From the NCBI GenBank assembly GCA_000004695.1, contig CM000153.2:4768001-4832000 (forward strand): a stretch of 64,000 nucleotides of DNA, given 5' to 3'. Positions within the stretch are counted from its first letter, which is position 1; each line of letters starts with the position of its first letter. Made by a program: the position numbers and the translations under genes. Below are positions 46,848 to 57,148 of the stretch, one piece after another. Origin of the DNA: Dictyostelium discoideum. Its lineage: Eukaryota. The notes below the pieces were generated by a model, which saw nothing but the letters and a program-made list of their open reading frames with translations, made no database searches and had not been told where the DNA came from.

Positions 46848-49135
46848 TTACAATTTAGATTGAATATAATTATCTTTAGTGAAAGGACCACCAACTTGGT
46901 TACAAATATTTTCATAGAGATCACCATCCTCCATACCTAAAGGTGAATTCATTAAGTATTCTTCATTACCAAAACCTTTAACTAAAAGCATAGCTTGTTG
47001 AGAGAGATCAGAACATAATTGACCGATTAATTTGATGATAGCTTTAGCTTTACCTTTCTTTAAGTAGTTACTATTTCTAAAGAATTCGAAATCCTCTCTA
47101 ATGATGTAAAGACCATAGAGTTGGCAAAGTTTCTTTAGGATGGAAGCCAATTCGAGATCCTTTTCAGATTGAATTTTTTCAATAAACTTTTGAAGGATGA
47201 TAGTTTCAGTGTGAGCTTTAGCCAAATGAATTAAAATCTCTAAAGATTGATTCCATGCTGTGAATGATTCTTTTGATTTTTTATAATTCTTACTAACGGT
47301 TTGAGCAGATTGAATTAAAAGTTTTGAAGATCTAAATTCCATGCAATCCAAAAGGAATTGGAAAGAGAGTAAATGGTTGTCATCACTACGCATGGTGGTG
47401 ATTGGGTTCATGCCGCTGAGGAGGAGACTGGTGTTTTTGCCCAAATATTTCAATGTGCCAGTGAACTTGTTTCCACTGTACTCCTTCTTGAATTGTGTGA
47501 GTAAATCCTTGGCAACCTGTTGGAGCAATAGTGTGTTATCACCCTCGAATGTTCTACCTACATCGATTGCGGCCACCAATTTACCCAAACGTGAATAGCC
47601 GCCATAACCATGACCGCCACATAATCTTCTCAATTCCATTAGAGACACAGTGGTGAATTGTGAAGTGATTGCTTTGAGACCCGATGCCAATACATGGATT
47701 TCCGCCTCATCAGTTCTCTCTTGGAATCTCTTACCCAAATAGATTTTAATAGCATCGAATGCATAGGTAGATGCAATCATTGGCATGATGGTGAGTTGAT
47801 GTGTTGGGTATGAAAGAATTGGTATCTCTGGTCCTGTTGAGGTTGGTCCGAATTGTAATCTTTTACATGCATAACGGGTGGCAATTATCAAACCAGACTT
47901 TAAAGTACGAGTTGACCCAAAACTAATGGTGATTCTACCAGTGATCATTTGAGCTAAAATATTTGCAAAACGTCTTGATGGATTCTTAATTGGTGATGAG
48001 TAAATTCCATTCTCTACAGACCCAAAACGATCTAATAAATTTGATGCTGGAATTCTAACATTATCAAATTGAATCCAACCATTATCAACACCATGCAAAC
48101 CAAACTTTGAGCCTACATCACCAATTTTCACACCTGGAAGTAAATCTACTCCATTGGATTTACGAATTGGTACTAAAAAACAATGAACCTCATGATCTTT
48201 ACCATCATCCATTATCAATCTTGCAAATACCGATGAAATCTGTGCATGGCCAGCATTACCAATCCACCATTTAGTCGAAGTTCTATAAGGTGTTTGAATT
48301 ATAAATTCATCGGTCTTTGGATCATAAGTAGCAGTAGTCTCTAATGATCTAACATTACTACCATGTCCTAATTCTGTCATTGCAAAACATCCTAATAATC
48401 TTCCTGATTGAATATCTGGTAATAGTTTATGATGTCTCTCTGTTCCTAAATTAAATACTGCGGCACCAAATAAAAAATTATTTACAATTAATTTTGTCAT
48501 TAAACCTATATTTAAAATACAAATATAATTATAAAAATAAATATTAGTATAAACTATTCTCCTCCCAATTTAGAATTAGGATATGTTTTTTATTACTTAC
48601 TTGCATCATCAAATTGTGATACTATATCAATAAATGCTAAAATTTTACTTGGATCATCACGAAGATCTGAAATTTGTATTAAGCCTTTTTCAAAAACACC
48701 ACGAGTAATTTCTAAAACTTGTTTTAATACCAACACTCTATTAGCCTCTTTTGTCATATCCAATTCTTTTACTTTAAAAACTTCACTAGTTGACATAATT
48801 CTATTTAATTCATCTCTAATCTATATAGAAATAAAAATTAAAAATGAAAAAAAAAAAAAAAATTATTATTATTATTATTTTAATATTAATATTAAAATTT
48901 TAATTAATAATAATAATAATAATAATAATAATGGAAAATTTGAAATTATGATATTTACATTATGATTTTCAAAACCTTGAATTGACCAATTTTTTAATTT
49001 ATCTGATAATGATAATTTACTTTTTGAATTTTGATCATTTATTTTTTGTTGAACATCATTATTTGATGGTTTAAATTGTAACATTGCTTTATATCCATCT
49101 CCGATTTTATAAGTTTCAATAAATTGGCCTGCCAC
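46848..49135 (-). CDS. Peroxisomal acyl-CoA oxidase (ACOX), 3 exons, C-terminal PTS1 '-SKL'. complement(join(46848..48505,48601..48820,48959..49135))
   Basis: 'AMTELGHGSNVRSLETTATYDPKTDEFIIQTPYRTSTKWWIGNAGHAQISSVFARL…FLVPIR…GVKIGDVGSKFG…DNGWIQFDNVRIP' is colinear with ACOX1. 'GGHGYGGYSRLGKL' present. Ends …YIQSKL*. Donors are GTAAGT (plus 48595-600) and GTAAAT (plus 48953-58). Whether exon 1 (MAGQFIETYK…) belongs to the gene is less certain. Confidence 0.8.
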
Positions 49136-50680: not shown

Positions 50681-50870
50681 ATGATTAATATATTAAAGGA
50701 CATTCTTTATAAATCATATAGCTATTTAGCATTTCCTTTTTTTTATTTGGGTTGGGCAATAAAAAACTCTTATCAACCTAATAAAACTATAAAAGAAGAA
50801 GAATCAAAACCACCCAAATATCCAAAAGAATGGAGTGATTTATTTATCCATTCTTATAATAATGAACATG

Positions 50871-50903
<33 letters not shown>

Positions 50904-50961
50904 ATTTTTTTTTTTTTTTTTAAAATTCTAAGATATTAAATGTTTAATTAATTTAATTAAA

Positions 50962-51000
<39 letters not shown>

Positions 51001-52247
51001 GGAAAAAGTTTTAGAAATAATTCAAAAGGAACCAAATAGTATAAATTCAGTAGATTCATTAAATTGGACACCTTTACATGTTGCTGTTTCAAATAAATCA
51101 ATTGAAGTTGTTACTTTATTATTAGAAAGAAATATTGAAATTTCAATTAAAAGTTTGTATTGTACAATTATAATTAATTCTTTTTTTTTTATATTTTTTT
51201 TTTAATTTTTTTTTTAATTATTAACTTTTTTTTTTTTTTTTTTATAATTTTTAAATAATAAAGGATATACAGCATTTCATATTGCAGCATGTAATGGTGA
51301 TTTAAATATAATTGAAAAGATGATTACAATGAATAGAGTGCCAAATGGTAATATATTATCAAATGATATGGAGACAAGTTTATTTTTATCAATTACAAAT
51401 AATCATTTTGAAATTTCAGAAAAGATAATGGACTATTATCAAAGTAGTATGAATAGTAATGAATTTAAAAAGATGATTGATCAATTTAATGTCCATGGTG
51501 TATCACCATTGATAATGTCAGTATTAAGAAAGAATTTAAAGATGATAAAGAAATTGATTGAAGAGGGTGATGCAGATATCAATAGTTTTAAAAAGGATAA
51601 TTCAACATCACTACATTGTGCAGCAATAATCGATTTCACCGAAGCAATTGAGTATCTATTAGATATTGGTGGTATTGAACTAATGAATTCAATTAATAGA
51701 TATGGTAATTCACCAATTCATGAAGCTGCAATTAAAGGTAACTTTAAATCAATTCAAACTTTTATAAATCAATTAAAAAAGATAATAATTAAAAATAATT
51801 GTAGTGATGGTGATAGTGATAAAGATAAATTAAATTTATTATTATTGGAAATTATTGATAAAAAAGATAAAGATGGTTCAACACCGTTACATTTATGTTG
51901 TAATTGTGTAAATTCTGATAATATTGAAAATAATTTAAAATCATGTAAAGTTTTAATTGAAGAAGGTGGTGTTCAAGTAAATGGTATCGATAGTGGTAAT
52001 GCAACAGCTTTGCATATATTAGCATGTGTTGGTGAAGATAAATCATTACCATTGGTTAAATATTTCCTTAGTATTGGTTCTGATCCAACAATTGAAAATA
52101 AATATGGGTGGACACCAATTCATCAAGCTTATAATAATAAAAATATTCAAATTTATCAATTACTTTTAGATCATTTAAAATTAACAAATTCAACATATAA
52201 ATTAGATATTGAAAAGAAAAGAGTATTTCAATCATCATCAACATCAA

Positions 52248-52304
<57 letters not shown>

Positions 52305-53260
52305 TATTATTAAATAAAGAAGAATTAAAATTAAAAGGAATTGAAAGATTAAAAAATGTAATTAATGGAATTAAAAAAGGTGAATTTAAAAATGTAATTG
52401 TATTAAGTGGTGCAGGTATAAGTGCCAATGCAGGTATACCACCATATAGAACTAAAGATGGATTGTTGGCAAAGAATAAACAATTTTCATTCTCAATGGA
52501 GATATTAGAGAAACATCCAGATGTATTTTATCAAGCGATAAGAGATCACTTTTATCCCATTATTAAAGCATCAAATGATAATGATCGTGATGATGGTATT
52601 AGTGCAGGTATTAAATCAACGAAATCCCATTATTTCATTAATGATTTAAATGAAAAGTATGGATGTTTATTAAGAAATTATACTCAAAATGTTGACCCTT
52701 TACAAGAGAGAACAGGCACTCCTACCGATAAGATCATTCATGCTCATGGTTCATTCGATCAATGGTATTGTACAGTTTGTCAAAAACAATACACTGATAA
52801 GAGTGATAGAATTTGGAGAGAAATTGGTAGAGGTGGTTTACCATTTTGTACGGAACCTGAATGCAGACATGTCATCAGACCAAATGTTGTGTTCTTTGGT
52901 GAACCACTCTCTCAAGACTTTAGAGTAAATACAATCACAGATTTTAGAAAAGCTGATCTATTAATTGTAATGGGTACAAGTTTAATAGTTTATCCATTCG
53001 CTTCACTTGTTAATGATGTTGCTTCTGATGTTCCAAGATTACTATTCAATTTCGAATCAACTGGTCCATTTGTAAATACAATGGATTTAGAAAGAAAGGA
53101 AAAATTAAAACAACAACAAGAAAATGAAAGTGGTGAATCATCAAATGATAATGATAATAATGAATTAATAGTTGAAGCAAGAGGTAATAGAGATATAGTA
53201 ATTTTAGGTGATTGTGATAAAGGTGTTGATTATTTCAATACTCTATTTAATTCATTTTAA
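50681..53260 (+). CDS. Sir2-family NAD-dependent deacetylase with an N-terminal hydrophobic segment and ankyrin repeats (ankyrin–sirtuin fusion). join(50681..50869,51002..51152,51264..53260)
   Basis: Sirtuin core: 'VIVLSGAGISANAGIPPYRT' (GAGIS…GIP(D)FR), 'TQNVDPLQERTG' (QNIDxL), 'HGSF', Zn tetrad 'CTVCQ…FCTEPEC', 'RPNVVFFGE'. Upstream ankyrin repeats (LNWTPLHVAVSNKSIEVVTLLLERN; YTAFHIAACNGDLNII; GSTPLHLCCNCVN; ATALHILACVGED; GWTPIHQAYNN). Exon 1 encodes a hydrophobic stretch (YLAFPFFYLGWAI). Donors are GTTTGT. Confidence 0.75.
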
Positions 53261-53340
53261 ATAATAATTAAATAAAAAAAAAAAAAGTAAAAAAAAAAAA
53301 TAAAAGAATAAAAAAAAAAAAAAAAAAAAAAAAATATTAT

Positions 53341-53640
53341 TGTTTAATTTTACTCAACCAAACACTGCATCATTTTACTCAGTCCAACCCCACATTATTT
53401 TATAAAAAAAAAAAACAAAATATCTTCAGTAGTTTTTTTTTTTTCACAGATAATGATATCATTTTTATAAAATTAAAAATATATTATTGTTTAATTTTAC
53501 CCAATCCAACCCCACATCATTTTATAAAAAAAAAAAAGAACAAAATATCTTCGGTAGTTTTTTTTTTCACAAATAATATCATTTTGATAAAATTAAAATA
53601 AAAATATCTTCTTATGTTTTTTTTTTTACAAACAATAACA
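53341..53640. repeat. ~125-bp tandem repeat (~2.5 copies) between the sirtuin 3' end and the large-ORF 5' end
   Basis: Unit 'attattgtttaattttac(t/c)caa(c/t)c(aa)a…ccccacat(t/c)attttataaaaaaaaaa…caaaatatcttc(a/g)gtagtttttttt…cac(ag)a(t)aat(g)atatcattt(t/g)ataaaattaaaa' recurs at 53341, 53466 and partially at 53590. Confidence 0.7.
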
Positions 53641-53851: not shown

Positions 53852-56800
53852 ATGAATTTACACACAAATAATAATAATAATAATAATAATTATGTAGATG
53901 AAAATCTATTTTGGAAAGTTTATAAAAATTTGTTTATTAGAAATTTAATATTTTATAAAATCATTTCAACAACAGTCATTTATAAATATGATGATGATGA
54001 TAGTCTTAGTAGTGGTAAATTTATTGTACCTTCTGATAGAGTACAATTTAAAAATATAATTTCTTTATCATGGATTGTTAAAAGAAATTTATGGTCATTA
54101 TTAAAGTATAAATTAATTAGTAATGAAGAATTAATTATAAAGAAAAAAGCAATAGAATTACTATTACAAGAATGTAAACATGATAAAGATTTATTAAAAC
54201 TAATCTATCAAAACAAGTATTATCAAATGAATCAAATCGATTTAATTTTAAATTCAATTAAACATTCAAATTTAATGGCATTAAAATTATTCATTGAAGA
54301 ATATAATTTACCGACAAATAATAATTCAATGGATATGGCATTAGAAATTGCAAGTAAACAATATTATAGAAATGAAGAAGAACAAAAACAATCATTTGAA
54401 GTTTTTCAATTTTTTTGGGAAAAGAAAAAAGATACTCTTCAATGCACTCAATCAGAGTTATTCAATCAAAATAGAAATTATAATGCATATATGTTACAAT
54501 TAATTTTAAATAATCCAAGTTTATATGGTGAATCTTTACAATCAAATAATAATAATAATAATAATAGTAGTAGTAATAATATTGGTTTAATGACATCAAG
54601 AGAATTTTTTAATCTTGCAGTTATGTCAGTAATACCTGAAAAAATTAAAATTGAATTACTTAATAGAGGATTCGTTAAAAATGAAAAAAGTATATATCGT
54701 GATGGTGATTATATTGCTAAAACAATTCAAAAGCAATCACCATATCTTCCAAAATCAATTTATAGTTATTTAGAAAAGAGTTATCAAAAGAATGAATTAT
54801 ATGAAAATCGTACCATTTCAGTTTTTTATTTTTTTAAAATATTAATTGAATATCCTGAAAAAGAAGATTCTCTTTCAATTTTAAAAGATTTCGTTAATGT
54901 AGCATACAAATTTACAGATTTAGAAATTAGATCATATAATACATTATCACTTAATCCAAATAGTTATAAAGCAGGTCAAAAAGTAGAAATTTTACAAGCT
55001 ATTTCAAGTTTTAATTTTACATTGAAAATTAAGATAATTGAGTCACTATTTCCAATTGATTCATTAACATTAGAATCTACACGATTCATTTTCGATAGAT
55101 TAAAATCTTCAATTGATAATGCTGGAACAATGAAACATGTTTCAAAGGCAGAATTAATTCCACAAAGTTTATATCATTTGAATATTATAAAAACAGCAGA
55201 TGTAGAATTACTTGACCAATTTTTAAATCACTTTCATTCAGATGCTGAAAGAAATTTAATATTTAAAATTGATGATGAAAATCCATTAAATAAAGATTAT
55301 TTCAAAGATTGCTCAATTCAAGATAGTGAAAAGATATCAAAATTCATTGACAAACTATCAAGTGTTAAAGAATTCAATTCAAATTCAAAATCATTTTTAA
55401 ATTGTTTAAAATCAAAACTTTTACCAATTTCGAGTGAATTATATATTTCAAGTTTATTAAAATTTAAAGAAACATCACGTAAACAAACCTATGTACACGC
55501 AAAAGTTTTAGATGAAACATTGTGTGATTTCTTTTCAGAAAAGAATAATTTTAAATCAAATTTAACATCATTTATTAAATTCATTAATTTTAGAAGTTTA
55601 TCAATTACATATCTCGTTGAAAAAGTTTTATTTTCCAATGATTTTGAACTTATAGAATTATTATTAAATACAATATGTAATAATAATAATAATTATGGCG
55701 CAGGTATTATAATGGTTCCAGTTTCATTTAAAACATCTAATCCTGACATAATTAAATTAATCATTTCGAAAAGTAATTGGCATAAATTATTTGATTTTAA
55801 AGGTTTAATCGATACAGTTATTAGTGATAGCAATGTTTGTAATATTAGTAATCCAAATACCGATTCTCAAACCATTGAATTAATTGAAACTGTTATTGAT
55901 TTTTTACATTCAAATAAAATTTATCAAAGAAATTCAAAAGAAGGATTTGGATTTGGATTTGGATTTGGAACAACGAATCAACAAGAAAATCACACTGAAA
56001 AAACAATAATTTCCAACGATGCAACAAAGATTGCACTTTTAAAAAAGAAATCCATTAAAATTTTACAACTTTTATTAAAATATAAAAATTTGTTTGATTG
56101 GGATTCACAATTATTTCCAAAACTTCCAAAATTACCAACAATTCAATTGGATGATGAAATACTTCCAAAATCAGATAAACCAATAATGTCAATTTATGAA
56201 CAACAAGAATTAGAAGACCAAGATTTATATCAATCTAGAAGAAGAAAGCCAAAAAATAAACATGGTGGTGGACGTGGTAGAAGAAGAATTGATACCTATA
56301 ATGACACTGCTTATGATGGCACCAATAACAACATTCCCTATATCGGTAGTATTGGTGGTAGTGTTTTTGCAAGTACTGAAGATTCAGTCAATGGTGGTGG
56401 TAGTGGTTTTTATAGTAGTAGTAGTAGTATTGGTAGTATTAGTAGTATTAGTAGTATTAGTAGTATTAGTAGTAGTAATAATAATAATGAATTAGGTAGT
56501 GATCAAAGTCAATTTATTCTAGGTGGTAATTTCACAGGTTTTAGTGGCAATTATCAGAGTAAAAGTAAAGATAAAAAAAAGATTAGAAATCTATACAATA
56601 CCAATTTCCTTGATAAATTTAAAACACATCAAGCTCAATCAATATTTGATACAATGGACCAATTATTCACTAGAAATTATACGTTTTCATTTGCATACAC
56701 GAGTGATAGTGTTTTTCAAGATTCAATATATCATTCAATAAAGAATAGAAGAATTGATGTAATTGAAAAATTAATAACTATTCAAATGTTTACAGATAAT

Positions 56801-57148
56801 CATGCAAAATTAATTTATTCAGATTTTTTAAAAAGAATTATTAGAAATGATGACGGTGTTGATTTAGTAACTTTTAAATACCTTTTTTCTCATAGATTCC
56901 TCAAGATATTCAGTACAGAGTTTTTACAAACAATGTCACAAGAATTATTAATTTGTGCTGTTTCAGAATGTTGTTTTCATCTTTGTCATTGGTTATTGTC
57001 AACAGATAATCCATGTAATGTATATGTTGAATTCTTGCCATTTAAAACGACCTACATTTTAAATGTCGAGAAAAAATTATCATATTGTGCATCACCAGTT
57101 TTCAAAGATTATATGATGAAAAAAATAAAACCTTTTATTAAATACTAA
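53852..57148 (+). CDS. Large (1099 aa) lineage-specific protein of unknown function; the founding full-length member of a locally multi-copy, fragmented family (see pseudogene features). Poly-N, GFGFGFG and (SIS)n low-complexity tracts.
   Basis: Uninterrupted ORF. Probable ATG at 53852 (MNLHTNNNNNNNNYVDE…); the track ORF starts upstream at 53747. No recognisable catalytic or transposase motifs by eye. Three partial copies lie elsewhere in the window. Confidence 0.6.
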   Translation: MNLHTNNNNNNNNYVDENLFWKVYKNLFIRNLIFYKIISTTVIYKYDDDDSLSSGKFIVPSDRVQFKNIISLSWIVKRNLWSLLKYKLISNEELIIKKKAIELLLQECKHDKDLLKLIYQNKYYQMNQIDLILNSIKHSNLMALKLFIEEYNLPTNNNSMDMALEIASKQYYRNEEEQKQSFEVFQFFWEKKKDTLQCTQSELFNQNRNYNAYMLQLILNNPSLYGESLQSNNNNNNNSSSNNIGLMTSREFFNLAVMSVIPEKIKIELLNRGFVKNEKSIYRDGDYIAKTIQKQSPYLPKSIYSYLEKSYQKNELYENRTISVFYFFKILIEYPEKEDSLSILKDFVNVAYKFTDLEIRSYNTLSLNPNSYKAGQKVEILQAISSFNFTLKIKIIESLFPIDSLTLESTRFIFDRLKSSIDNAGTMKHVSKAELIPQSLYHLNIIKTADVELLDQFLNHFHSDAERNLIFKIDDENPLNKDYFKDCSIQDSEKISKFIDKLSSVKEFNSNSKSFLNCLKSKLLPISSELYISSLLKFKETSRKQTYVHAKVLDETLCDFFSEKNNFKSNLTSFIKFINFRSLSITYLVEKVLFSNDFELIELLLNTICNNNNNYGAGIIMVPVSFKTSNPDIIKLIISKSNWHKLFDFKGLIDTVISDSNVCNISNPNTDSQTIELIETVIDFLHSNKIYQRNSKEGFGFGFGFGTTNQQENHTEKTIISNDATKIALLKKKSIKILQLLLKYKNLFDWDSQLFPKLPKLPTIQLDDEILPKSDKPIMSIYEQQELEDQDLYQSRRRKPKNKHGGGRGRRRIDTYNDTAYDGTNNNIPYIGSIGGSVFASTEDSVNGGGSGFYSSSSSIGSISSISSISSISSSNNNNELGSDQSQFILGGNFTGFSGNYQSKSKDKKKIRNLYNTNFLDKFKTHQAQSIFDTMDQLFTRNYTFSFAYTSDSVFQDSIYHSIKNRRIDVIEKLITIQMFTDNHAKLIYSDFLKRIIRNDDGVDLVTFKYLFSHRFLKIFSTEFLQTMSQELLICAVSECCFHLCHWLLSTDNPCNVYVEFLPFKTTYILNVEKKLSYCASPVFKDYMMKKIKPFIKY

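What the first reader, a model, noticed from the sequence alone, without database searches (positions are those of the whole stretch)
50681..53260. Sirtuin catalytic domain fused to ankyrin repeats and an N-terminal hydrophobic segment; variant GIPPYR motif
A three-exon gene encodes a hydrophobic N-terminus, at least five ankyrin repeats, a poly-Ser linker, and a complete Sir2 core (GAGIS, QNVD, HG, Cys4 zinc ribbon, RPNVVFFGE). The canonical GIPDFR nicotinamide-pocket motif reads GIPPYR. An ANK–SIR2 architecture suggests substrate targeting via protein–protein interaction, and possibly membrane association, which is unusual among sirtuins.
Basis: partly seen in the sequence, partly recalled or inferred. 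Interest (0 to 1): 0.5.

Follow-up and report, generated by a model that had tools for sequence, protein, structure and literature searches.

The report
Ankyrin-repeat sirtuin gene of Dictyostelium
This is a real three-exon social-amoeba gene encoding an NAD-dependent protein deacylase (a sirtuin) joined to ten ankyrin repeats and a hydrophobic N-terminus; it is almost certainly the already named but unstudied sir2B gene, and the same layout occurs in many protists.

Summary
Window 50681-53260 (+) holds a three-exon gene whose only fully canonical GT-AG, orthologue-consistent model gives 778 aa. The parts in order are an aromatic/hydrophobic N-terminal segment, about ten ankyrin repeats (not five), a poly-Ser linker and a complete class I Sir2 domain. 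That domain has GAGIS, QNVD, a catalytic His, four Zn cysteines and FFGE, and is closest to human SIRT3/SIRT2.

The ANK-SIR2 fusion does not depend on splicing: eight repeats and the Sir2 domain share one ORF in exon 3. Orthologues with the same exon structure and synteny occur throughout Dictyostelia. Both domains are under purifying selection (dN/dS 0.1-0.2).

GIPPYR is a derived, lineage-restricted variant. It is P-Y in the D. discoideum group, D. purpureum and P. violaceum, A/T-Y in other dictyostelids, and D-F in deeper relatives.

ANK-SIR2 proteins, often with an N-terminal membrane-anchor-like segment, also occur in other Amoebozoa, choanoflagellates and a green alga. Their Sir2 domains cluster together.

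One new detail: the ancestral intron-2 acceptor AG reads AA here, so splicing probably shifts 9 nt (NNKG to R).

The gene is known (Sir2B is named in the literature but unstudied). Interest is low to moderate.

The parts
50681..50869 (+). Exon 1 (63 codons): start codon, N-terminal aromatic/hydrophobic segment, start of the first (capping) ankyrin repeat
   Evidence: ATG at 50681. The donor GAACAT|GTTTGTAT at 50870 matches the orthologue models, and NNEH|EKVLEII is conserved.
50702..50758 (+). Putative membrane-anchor segment, aa 8-26 (ILYKSYSYLAFPFFYLGWA)
   Evidence: Most favourable 19-mer of the protein on the Wimley-White octanol scale (-8.9 kcal/mol). Kyte-Doolittle gives only 0.75. Predicted helix 14-31 in the orthologue model at modest pLDDT. 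An equivalent, more hydrophobic segment occurs in 23 of 42 full-length family members against 4 of 63 unfused sirtuins.
50870..51001 (+). Intron 1 (132 nt, GT...AG)
   Evidence: An intron sits at the same codon position in L001-L003.
51002..51152 (+). Exon 2 (151 nt): ankyrin repeats 1-2
   Evidence: Exactly 151 nt in all four genomes. It has no in-frame ATG. The best Pfam Ank stretch is aa 85-112.
51153..51263 (+). Intron 2 (111 nt as modelled). The ancestral acceptor dinucleotide at 51253-51254 reads AA here, and the first downstream AG is at 51262-51263.
   Evidence: The donor aaaa|GTTTGTATT is identical in the window and L001-L003. The orthologues end the intron with tAG|ATAATAAAGGATAT, whereas the window reads tAA|ATAATAAAGGATAT.
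51264..53260 (+). Exon 3: ankyrin repeats 3-10, Ser-rich linker, Sir2 catalytic domain, stop codon
   Evidence: Single uninterrupted reading frame. The 646-aa ORF from ATG 51320 already contains both ANK and SIR2. In-frame TAA at 51245-51247 upstream.
50834..52198 (+). Ankyrin-repeat solenoid, about aa 52-425, ten repeats (interrupted by the two introns)
   Evidence: Pfam Ank_2 3e-39 with five multi-repeat stretches. Ten helix pairs at pLDDT above 90 in the orthologue model. dN/dS 0.15-0.23.
52232..52303 (+). Ser/Thr-rich low-complexity linker (aa 437-460, including 18 consecutive Ser)
   Evidence: Length and composition differ between close species. pLDDT below 50 in the model. dN/dS is higher here.
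52337..53257 (+). Sir2 catalytic domain with a preceding helix (aa 472-778), class I, SIRT2/SIRT3-like
   Evidence: Pfam SIR2 4e-36. Sequence matches to SIRT3 at 1e-40 and SIRT2 at 1e-32. Foldseek matches SIRT2/SIRT3 with TM 0.77-0.85 normalised to the target. dN/dS 0.11-0.19.
52433..52450 (+). GIPPYR (aa 504-509), a variant of the GIPDFR NAD-binding loop motif
   Evidence: Read directly as ggt ata cca cca tat aga.
52745..52747 (+). Catalytic histidine codon (His608 in AHGSF)
   Evidence: Invariant column H608 in the orthologue alignment. Aligned with the AHG of SIRT3.
52769..52864 (+). Zinc-ribbon cysteines C616, C619, C642, C647
   Evidence: C616 is invariant; C619, C642 and C647 are at least 90% conserved. 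They align with the SIRT3 CxxC...CxxC.

Best explanation
The locus is a functional protein-coding gene of Dictyostelium discoideum or a very close relative. It corresponds to the sirtuin paralogue called sir2B. That name and its 778-aa length come from my own memory of the databases, and the literature only lists Sir2B as one of five Dictyostelium sirtuins.

The product is a class I (SIRT2/SIRT3-like) NAD+-dependent protein lysine deacylase with an intact catalytic core. The enzyme carries a ten-repeat ankyrin solenoid, joined through a disordered Ser-rich linker and a long helix.

Inferred: the solenoid acts as a protein-protein interaction platform that selects or recruits substrates, or docks the enzyme to partners. 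Also inferred: an N-terminal hydrophobic segment tethers the protein to a membrane with the ANK and Sir2 domains facing the cytosol.

Shown here: the gene structure, domain content, conservation, purifying selection and family distribution.

Inferred only: enzymatic activity, the substrate-targeting role of the repeats, the membrane anchoring and which membrane is involved.

The GIPPYR motif is a lineage-specific variant of the NAD-binding loop. It most likely modulates NAD+ handling rather than abolishing it.
For: Gene structure and reality:
- The canonical GT-AG model gives 778 aa.
- Orthologues at 93, 86 and 80% identity have the same three exons, a 151-nt exon 2 and the same neighbours, with acyl-CoA oxidase upstream and a protein of about 1100 aa downstream.
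- dN/dS is 0.15-0.23 for ANK and 0.11-0.19 for SIR2.

Catalytic competence:
- Every hallmark residue is present and conserved in 13 orthologues: G496, G498, S500, R509, Q588, N589, D591, H608 and C616, with C619, C642 and C647 at 90% or more.
- The best solved relatives are SIRT3 (1e-40), SIRT2 (1e-32) and Sir2Tm (7e-33).
- The predicted fold of the 93%-identical orthologue has mean pLDDT 89.6 and pTM 0.82. It superposes on SIRT2/SIRT3 at TM 0.77-0.85.

ANK domain: Pfam 3e-39 and ten repeats in the model.

Anchor:
- Hydrophobic N-terminal 19-mers with Kyte-Doolittle score of at least 1.6 occur in 23 of 42 full-length ANK-SIR2 proteins against 4 of 63 unfused relatives.
- They are usually followed by net positive charge.
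- D. purpureum scores 2.57.

Fusion is old and transcribed as one unit: complete TRINITY transcripts from eight other amoebozoan genera and two choanoflagellates encode ANK plus SIR2.

GIPPYR:
- The D position varies within the orthologue group (D, A, T, P) while everything else stays constant.
- The active enzyme SIRT5 has Thr there.
Against: - No transcript, protein or activity data for this organism were available. The exact 778-aa sequence is not in the 15-billion-protein collection.
- The window's own N-terminal segment scores only 0.75 on Kyte-Doolittle. It is short (about 14-16 apolar or aromatic residues) and contains Pro, Lys and Ser. It may be an interfacial helix or no anchor at all.
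- Two dictyostelid orthologues (P0006, P0007) lack a convincing segment.
- Replacing the same Asp in human SIRT6 (D63H, D63Y) cuts kcat/Km 688-fold (PMC5900711; residue identity confirmed). So a Pro here could weaken NAD+ binding.
- The modelled splice acceptor removes a conserved Gly of the ankyrin beta-hairpin.
Confidence: 0.7

Rival explanations
1. The ankyrin exons (exons 1-2) belong to a separate upstream gene or are not expressed, and the real gene starts at ATG 51320 inside exon 3.
For: There is no transcript evidence for this genome. The ancestral acceptor of intron 2 is destroyed, reading AA at 51253-51254. A 646-aa ORF starts at 51320.
Against: - Even the 646-aa ORF carries about eight ankyrin repeats plus Sir2, so the fusion would stand.
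- Exon 2 has no ATG and is exactly 151 nt in four genomes.
- Residues encoded between 51266 and 51319, upstream of that ATG, are identical to those of the orthologues (YTAFHIAACNGDLNIIEK).
- An in-frame AG 9 nt downstream of the lost acceptor keeps the frame.
- dN/dS of the N-terminal 60 codons is 0.12-0.36.
Confidence: 0.05
2. The protein is a catalytically impaired pseudo-sirtuin or NAD+ sensor. The D-to-P (and F-to-Y) change in the NAD-binding loop has disabled deacylation, and the protein now acts mainly as an ankyrin scaffold.
For: - The equivalent Asp63 of SIRT6 structures the NAD+-binding loop. D63H and D63Y nearly abolish activity, with Km for NAD+ up 6.8-fold and kcat/Km down 688-fold (PMC5900711).
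- D-F is the state in 52 of the 64 sirtuin-motif relatives surveyed; the 12 exceptions include all nine dictyostelid orthologues.
Against: - All other catalytic and zinc residues are invariant or nearly so across dictyostelids that carry P, A or T at this position.
- The Sir2 domain has the lowest dN/dS of the protein, 0.11-0.19. This is not expected after loss of catalysis.
- SIRT5 is active with Thr at this position.
- Tyr in place of Phe also occurs in other family members carrying D-Y.
Confidence: 0.12
3. The Sir2 domain is a defence-type NADase effector (like ThsA, DSR or SIR2-STAND proteins), with the ankyrin repeats acting as a sensor of infection.
For: SIR2 domains fused to repeat sensors are common in immune systems. 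Ankyrin-only hits were found in PADLOC.
Against: - No PADLOC SIR2 model matches the Sir2 region.
- The domain has the zinc ribbon and substrate-binding elements of class I deacylases.
- It is closest to SIRT3/SIRT2 in sequence and fold.
- NCBIfam hits are all NAD-dependent deacetylase or deacylase families.
Confidence: 0.03
4. The N-terminal segment is not a membrane anchor but a cleaved targeting signal or simply part of a soluble fold, and the protein is cytosolic like Sir2A and Sir2C.
For: - The Kyte-Doolittle score is 0.75, below the usual 1.6 threshold.
- The predicted helix has modest pLDDT, 57-71.
- Flag-tagged Sir2A and Sir2C are distributed across whole cells (PMC6475656).
Against: - The segment is enriched across the family without sequence conservation: 23 of 42 fused against 4 of 63 unfused.
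- It is followed by positive charge.
- It is strongly hydrophobic in D. purpureum, scoring 2.57.
- It is the most favourable 19-mer of the protein on the Wimley-White octanol scale.
Confidence: 0.25

Closest known systems
Human SIRT3 and SIRT2 (class I sirtuins)
   Same: The Sir2 domain aligns over about 245 residues (E 1e-40 and 1e-32). It shares GAGIS, TQN(I/V)D, AHG(S/T)F, the zinc cysteines, VFFGEPL and GTSL. The predicted fold superposes at TM 0.77-0.85.
   Different: SIRT2 and SIRT3 have no ankyrin repeats and no N-terminal anchor. They carry GIPDFR rather than GIPPYR. The second zinc pair here is CxxxxC rather than CxxC. The D. discoideum group also has a 12-residue acidic insertion in the helical subdomain.
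Dictyostelium sirtuin paralogues Sir2A, Sir2C, Sir2D and Sir2E
   Same: They belong to the same organism and enzyme family. Sir2A-Sir2E are listed as the five Dictyostelium sirtuins (PMC6475656).
   Different: Sir2A, C and D were cloned and localised, and Sir2D has a developmental role. Sir2B was not studied and is reported there as only about 10% identical to mouse Sirt1. That paper does not describe ankyrin repeats for the other paralogues. I did not compare the paralogue sequences directly.
ANK-SIR2 proteins of other protists (orthologues in Dictyostelia; homologues in Planoprotostelium, Echinamoeba, Ceratiomyxa, Pellita, Salpingoeca urceolata, Acanthoeca, Cymbomonas)
   Same: They share the domain order of N-terminal hydrophobic segment, ankyrin repeats, then a C-terminal Sir2 domain, in proteins of about 650-900 aa. 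Their Sir2 domains cluster together in a neighbour-joining tree.
   Different: Most have canonical GIPDFR or GIPDYR, whereas the window protein has the derived P-Y state. Most also have a more hydrophobic N-terminal segment. None is characterised.
Tankyrase (ankyrin repeat clusters plus an NAD+-consuming PARP domain)
   Same: It shares the design logic: an ankyrin array that recruits protein substrates, joined to a C-terminal NAD+-using catalytic domain. Tankyrase ankyrin regions appear among the sequence hits.
   Different: The catalytic domain is unrelated (PARP, not Sir2) and the chemistry differs (ADP-ribosylation, not deacylation). Tankyrase has a SAM domain and no membrane anchor. This is an analogy only.
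Algal and heterokont class II HDA deacetylases with an N-terminal ankyrin domain
   Same: It is a lysine deacetylase fused to an N-terminal ankyrin domain in protists, interpreted as a protein-interaction platform (PMC5499015).
   Different: That catalytic domain is zinc-dependent HDAC, not an NAD+-dependent sirtuin. The same survey describes plant and algal sirtuins as bare catalytic subunits.

Membership tests
Sir2 family / sirtuins (Pfam PF02146) | Profile match above the curated threshold | tested here: met
   125 bits against a cut-off of 24, E 4e-36, covering the full profile 1-180.
Sir2 family / sirtuins (Pfam PF02146) | Rossmann NAD-binding motif GAGxS, and the Arg of the cofactor loop | tested here: met
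   GAGIS 496-500 and R509. G496, G498, S500 and R509 are invariant in 13 orthologues.
Sir2 family / sirtuins (Pfam PF02146) | Canonical GIPDFR cofactor-loop sequence | tested here: inconclusive
   The motif reads GIPPYR. Gly, Ile, Pro and Arg are kept, with D changed to P and F changed to Y. The D position is naturally Thr in SIRT5, but mutating it in SIRT6 inactivates the enzyme.
Sir2 family / sirtuins (Pfam PF02146) | TQN(I/V)D motif and catalytic His (HG) | tested here: met
   TQNVD 587-591 and AHG 607-609. T587, Q588, N589, D591, H608 and G609 are invariant, and they align with SIRT3.
Sir2 family / sirtuins (Pfam PF02146) | Four-cysteine zinc ribbon | tested here: met
   C616, C619, C642 and C647. 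The spacing is CxxC...CxxxxC.
Sir2 family / sirtuins (Pfam PF02146) | NAD+-dependent deacylase activity | not testable with these tools
   This needs an enzyme assay.
Class I sirtuins (SIRT1/2/3, Hst2 type) | Closest sequence and fold relatives are class I members | tested here: met
   SIRT3 1e-40, SIRT2 1e-32 and SIRT1 1e-28. The top 46 Foldseek hits are all SIRT2 or SIRT3. No formal phylogeny including classes II-IV was made.
Ankyrin-repeat proteins | Tandem 33-residue helix-loop-helix repeats | tested here: met
   Ank_2 scores 133.9 bits against 27.3, and Ank scores 114.8 against 21.1. Ten helix pairs at pLDDT above 90 in the orthologue model.
Membrane-anchored ANK-SIR2 group (defined here, not a curated family) | N-terminal transmembrane-grade hydrophobic segment followed by basic residues | tested here: inconclusive
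   The window protein scores 0.75 on Kyte-Doolittle, below the 1.6 threshold, but -8.9 kcal/mol on the Wimley-White octanol scale. The feature is met in 23 of 42 family members.
Membrane-anchored ANK-SIR2 group (defined here, not a curated family) | Sir2 domain groups with those of other ANK-SIR2 proteins | tested here: met
   One neighbour-joining split contains 48 of 49 fused and 5 of 63 clearly unfused sequences. Separation of at least 0.90 occurred in 90 of 100 bootstraps. This is a rough distance method.
Defence-type SIR2 NADases (ThsA, DSR, SIR2-STAND) | Match of the Sir2 region to a defence SIR2 profile | tested here: not met
   PADLOC returns only ankyrin-region hits and none for residues 350-664 of the exon-3 product.
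Tankyrase / PARP | PARP catalytic domain | tested here: not met
   There is no PF00644 hit. Only ANK and SIR2 were found.

The most novel reading that the evidence does not exclude
The gene represents an ancient, so far undescribed subfamily of class I sirtuins. These proteins are membrane-anchored and carry an ankyrin array. The subfamily was present before Amoebozoa, choanoflagellates and green algae diverged, and was lost in animals, fungi and land plants. In dictyostelids the NAD-binding loop was remodelled (D-F to A/T/P-Y), which might change NAD+ affinity or nicotinamide sensitivity.
Probability: 0.45. Interest if true: 0.45.

Novelty: already known. Interest (0 to 1): 0.3.

Why it matters
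For this window it matters little. It is a correctly recognised, conserved gene of a well-annotated model organism, one of five named sirtuins.

The modest wider value is threefold:
- Sirtuins are usually described as bare catalytic subunits. A survey of sirtuin evolution (PMC9486876) found little evidence for domain fusions. Here an ANK-SIR2 layout with an N-terminal anchor-like segment turns out to be widespread in protists and to form one group.
- Dictyostelium is genetically tractable, so the unstudied Sir2B could show what a tethered, repeat-guided sirtuin does.
- The natural D-to-P change sits at a loop position whose mutation in human SIRT6 is lethal. This offers a natural experiment on NAD-loop tolerance.

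Tried and rejected
- Exact look-up of the 778-aa model found nothing. The homology search's best hit was 93% identical, so no variant model of this genome's protein is in the collection. I therefore did not spend a look-up on the other five GT-AG models or on the 781-aa AA-acceptor model.
I modelled the 93%-identical orthologue P0001 instead, so the model carries the ancestral NNKG loop.
- The afdb50 fold library, which might have named the UniProt entry, was unavailable.
- A text search for the dictyBase identifier I recalled (DDB_G0286671) found no paper. The sir2B identification therefore rests on memory, on the paper listing Sir2A-E, and on matching identifiers for A, C and D.
- The other in-frame GT-AG combinations (donors 50874 and 51162; acceptors 51007 and 51271) were rejected because the orthologue protein and DNA alignments support donors 50870 and 51153 and acceptor 51000.
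- A defence-type SIR2 reading was rejected.
- A mitochondrial presequence was considered and not pursued. The N-terminus is aromatic rather than Arg-rich amphipathic, and no predictor was available.
- A tRNA scan of the window found none.
- Literature searches for ankyrin-sirtuin fusions found only an analogous ankyrin-HDAC case.
Full report
**What is there.** The region is extremely AT-rich, with poly-A/T intergenic DNA and codon-repeat tracts typical of Dictyostelium.
- From ATG 50681 to TAA 53258-53260 there are six in-frame GT-AG spliced models.
- The model that agrees with related proteins has exon 1 at 50681-50869, exon 2 at 51002-51152 and exon 3 at 51264-53260, giving 778 aa.
- Pfam finds ankyrin repeats (Ank_2, 3e-39) and a full-length Sir2 domain (4e-36, aa 496-691).

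**Is the gene model right?** The ANK-SIR2 fusion itself needs no splicing. Exon 3 is one open frame that encodes eight repeats, the Ser-rich linker and the Sir2 domain, and even the mechanical ORF from ATG 51320 (646 aa) has both.

The two upstream exons are supported by comparison:
- The closest proteins are from Dictyostelium cf. discoideum (93%), D. citrinum (86%) and D. firmibasis (80%). All have ANK plus SIR2.
- Their loci share the neighbours, with acyl-CoA oxidase upstream on the other strand and an unannotated protein of about 1100 aa downstream.
- I reconstructed their annotated models. Each has three exons with introns at the same codon positions and an exon 2 of exactly 151 nt, as in the window.
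- Exon 2 has no ATG.
- The stretch 51266-51319, upstream of the first ATG of exon 3, encodes YTAFHIAACNGDLNIIEK identically to the orthologues.
- An in-frame TAA lies at 51245-51247.
- dN/dS against the three relatives is 0.15-0.23 for the ANK region and 0.11-0.19 for the Sir2 domain.

**A wrinkle at intron 2.**
- In the three relatives the intron ends tAG|ATAATAAAGGATAT, giving IK-N-NKG-YTAFH.
- The window reads tAA|ATAATAAAGGATAT. The G of the ancestral acceptor is an A (51253-51254 = AA).
- The first AG downstream (51262-51263) is 9 nt further on and keeps the frame. It gives IK-R-YTAFH, so NNKG is replaced by R, a net loss of three residues.
- This removes the Gly of the hairpin that precedes ankyrin repeat 3. 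In the orthologue model that stretch is a loop.
- Which site is used can only be settled with transcript data.

**The catalytic domain.**
- Sequence search of solved structures puts it closest to human SIRT3 (1e-40), then Thermotoga Sir2 and SIRT2 (about 1e-32), then SIRT1 (1e-28).
- An AlphaFold model of P0001, built from a 36-sequence alignment, has mean pLDDT 89.6 and pTM 0.82.
- Its Sir2 part matches SIRT2/SIRT3 structures at TM 0.77-0.85.
- No solved structure combines the two domains.
- In 13 orthologues the columns G496, G498, I499, S500, G504, I505, P506, R509, T587, Q588, N589, D591, H608, G609 and C616 are invariant. C619, C642, C647 and FFGE are at least 90% conserved.
- PADLOC has no defence-type SIR2 match, and NCBIfam matches are all NAD-dependent deacylases.

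I conclude it is a class I sirtuin with an intact active site. Activity itself is inferred.

**GIPPYR.**
- Among the 64 sirtuin-motif proteins from the first two searches, which include the orthologues themselves, D-F is the state in 52.
- P-Y is found only in the D. discoideum group, D. purpureum and Polysphondylium violaceum.
- Other dictyostelids have A-Y or T-Y.
- Deeper ANK-SIR2 proteins (Echinamoeba, Planoprotostelium) have D-F.

So the variant is real, derived and lineage-restricted, and the Asp position is relaxed in this group while the rest of the site is fixed.

Two points bear on its significance:
- The same Asp in human SIRT6 (D63, confirmed by residue numbering) structures the NAD+-binding loop. 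D63H and D63Y raise Km for NAD+ 6.8-fold and cut kcat/Km 688-fold (PMC5900711).
- SIRT5 naturally has GVPTFR, and D-Y occurs in other family members.

The most likely reading is a tolerated, possibly tuning, substitution. A pseudo-enzyme is unlikely given the selection pattern.

**The ankyrin domain and linker.**
- The model shows ten helix-pair repeats between residues 54 and 422 at pLDDT above 90.
- A disordered Ser-rich linker follows (pLDDT below 50), then a long helix (451-475) leading into the Sir2 fold.
- The linker differs in length and composition even between close species.
- The high pTM hints at a defined ANK-Sir2 arrangement, but I could not inspect inter-domain contacts.

**The N-terminus.**
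- The window protein has an aromatic 19-mer (aa 8-26).
- Relatives have clearer segments: D. purpureum 2.57, and P. violaceum, Cavenderia and Planoprotostelium 1.6-1.8.
- Across the wider family, 23 of 42 full-length ANK-SIR2 proteins reach 1.6 within the first 70 residues, against 4 of 63 unfused relatives.
- The segment is mostly followed by net positive charge.

That pattern, hydrophobicity conserved without sequence conservation and a basic downstream flank, is what a signal-anchor with a cytosolic C-terminal domain looks like (established topology rules; this is inference). Which membrane is involved is unknown.

**Distribution.**
- A filter-free HMMER search of 1.84 billion representatives, followed by motif screening, found at least 47 ANK-SIR2 proteins.
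- Source names place them as follows:
  - Amoebozoa: Clastostelium, Soliformovum, Ceratiomyxa, Pellita, Echinamoeba, Cavostelium, Pyxidicula and Flabellula.
  - Choanoflagellates: Salpingoeca urceolata and Acanthoeca spectabilis.
  - Green algae: Cymbomonas.
  - Euglenids: an Entosiphon transcriptome, where prey contamination is possible.
- Many are complete assembled transcripts, which is direct evidence that the fusion is expressed as one unit in those species.
- In a neighbour-joining tree of 148 Sir2 domains, one split holds 48 of 49 fused proteins and only 5 of 63 clearly unfused ones.
- A split at least that clean (balanced separation of 0.90 or more) appears in 90 of 100 bootstraps.

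This is a rough method on a biased sample, but it points to a single old origin.

**What is known.**
- The literature lists five Dictyostelium sirtuins, Sir2A-E. Sir2A, C and D were cloned and localised, and Sir2B is only mentioned (PMC6475656).
- From memory, UniProt and dictyBase list sir2B as a 778-aa protein with ANK repeats, which matches the model here. I could not verify this with the tools.
- A survey of sirtuin evolution found little evidence for domain fusions and does not mention ankyrin (PMC9486876).
- An analogous ankyrin-HDAC fusion is described in algae (PMC5499015).

**Verdict.**
- The architecture is not rare once protists are included.
- The family-level picture and the shifted splice acceptor are small additions.
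- Interest is low to moderate.

Noticed in passing
window 51245-51265: The ancestral 3' splice site of intron 2 is AG in D. cf. discoideum, D. citrinum and D. firmibasis but reads AA here. The next AG, 9 nt downstream, keeps the frame and would replace NNKG by R in the hairpin before ankyrin repeat 3.
   Followed up: partly
window 52571-52615 (aa 550-564 of the 778-aa model): An acidic insertion (ASNDNDRDDGISAG) in the helical subdomain of the Sir2 domain is present only in the D. discoideum / citrinum / firmibasis group. It has pLDDT below 50 in the orthologue model.
   Followed up: no
window 52232-52303: The (TCA)n-type poly-Ser tract (18 consecutive Ser) differs in length and composition between close species. 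D. firmibasis has poly-Asn there, so it behaves like an evolving coding microsatellite.
   Followed up: no
window 53393-53623: Two direct copies of a unit of about 106 nt (74% identical, spaced 125 nt) lie in the intergenic DNA just downstream of the gene. A further related stretch starts near 53340 by eye.
   Followed up: no
window 53853-57148 (+): The downstream long ORF (1133 aa as listed from a TTG; probable ATG at 53853) is rich in Asn and Ser repeats. It is syntenic with proteins of 1087-1154 aa in the three related genomes that have no Pfam hit on record.
   Followed up: no
window 46848-48500 (-): A 550-aa ORF lies on the minus strand upstream, in the position where the related genomes have an acyl-CoA oxidase gene (PF02770, PF01756). 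It was not examined here.
   Followed up: no
proteins P0205, P0325, P0210 (not in the window): ANK-SIR2 proteins with N-terminal hydrophobic segments also occur in choanoflagellates and a prasinophyte alga. This implies the layout predates Amoebozoa and was lost in animals, fungi and land plants.
   Followed up: partly
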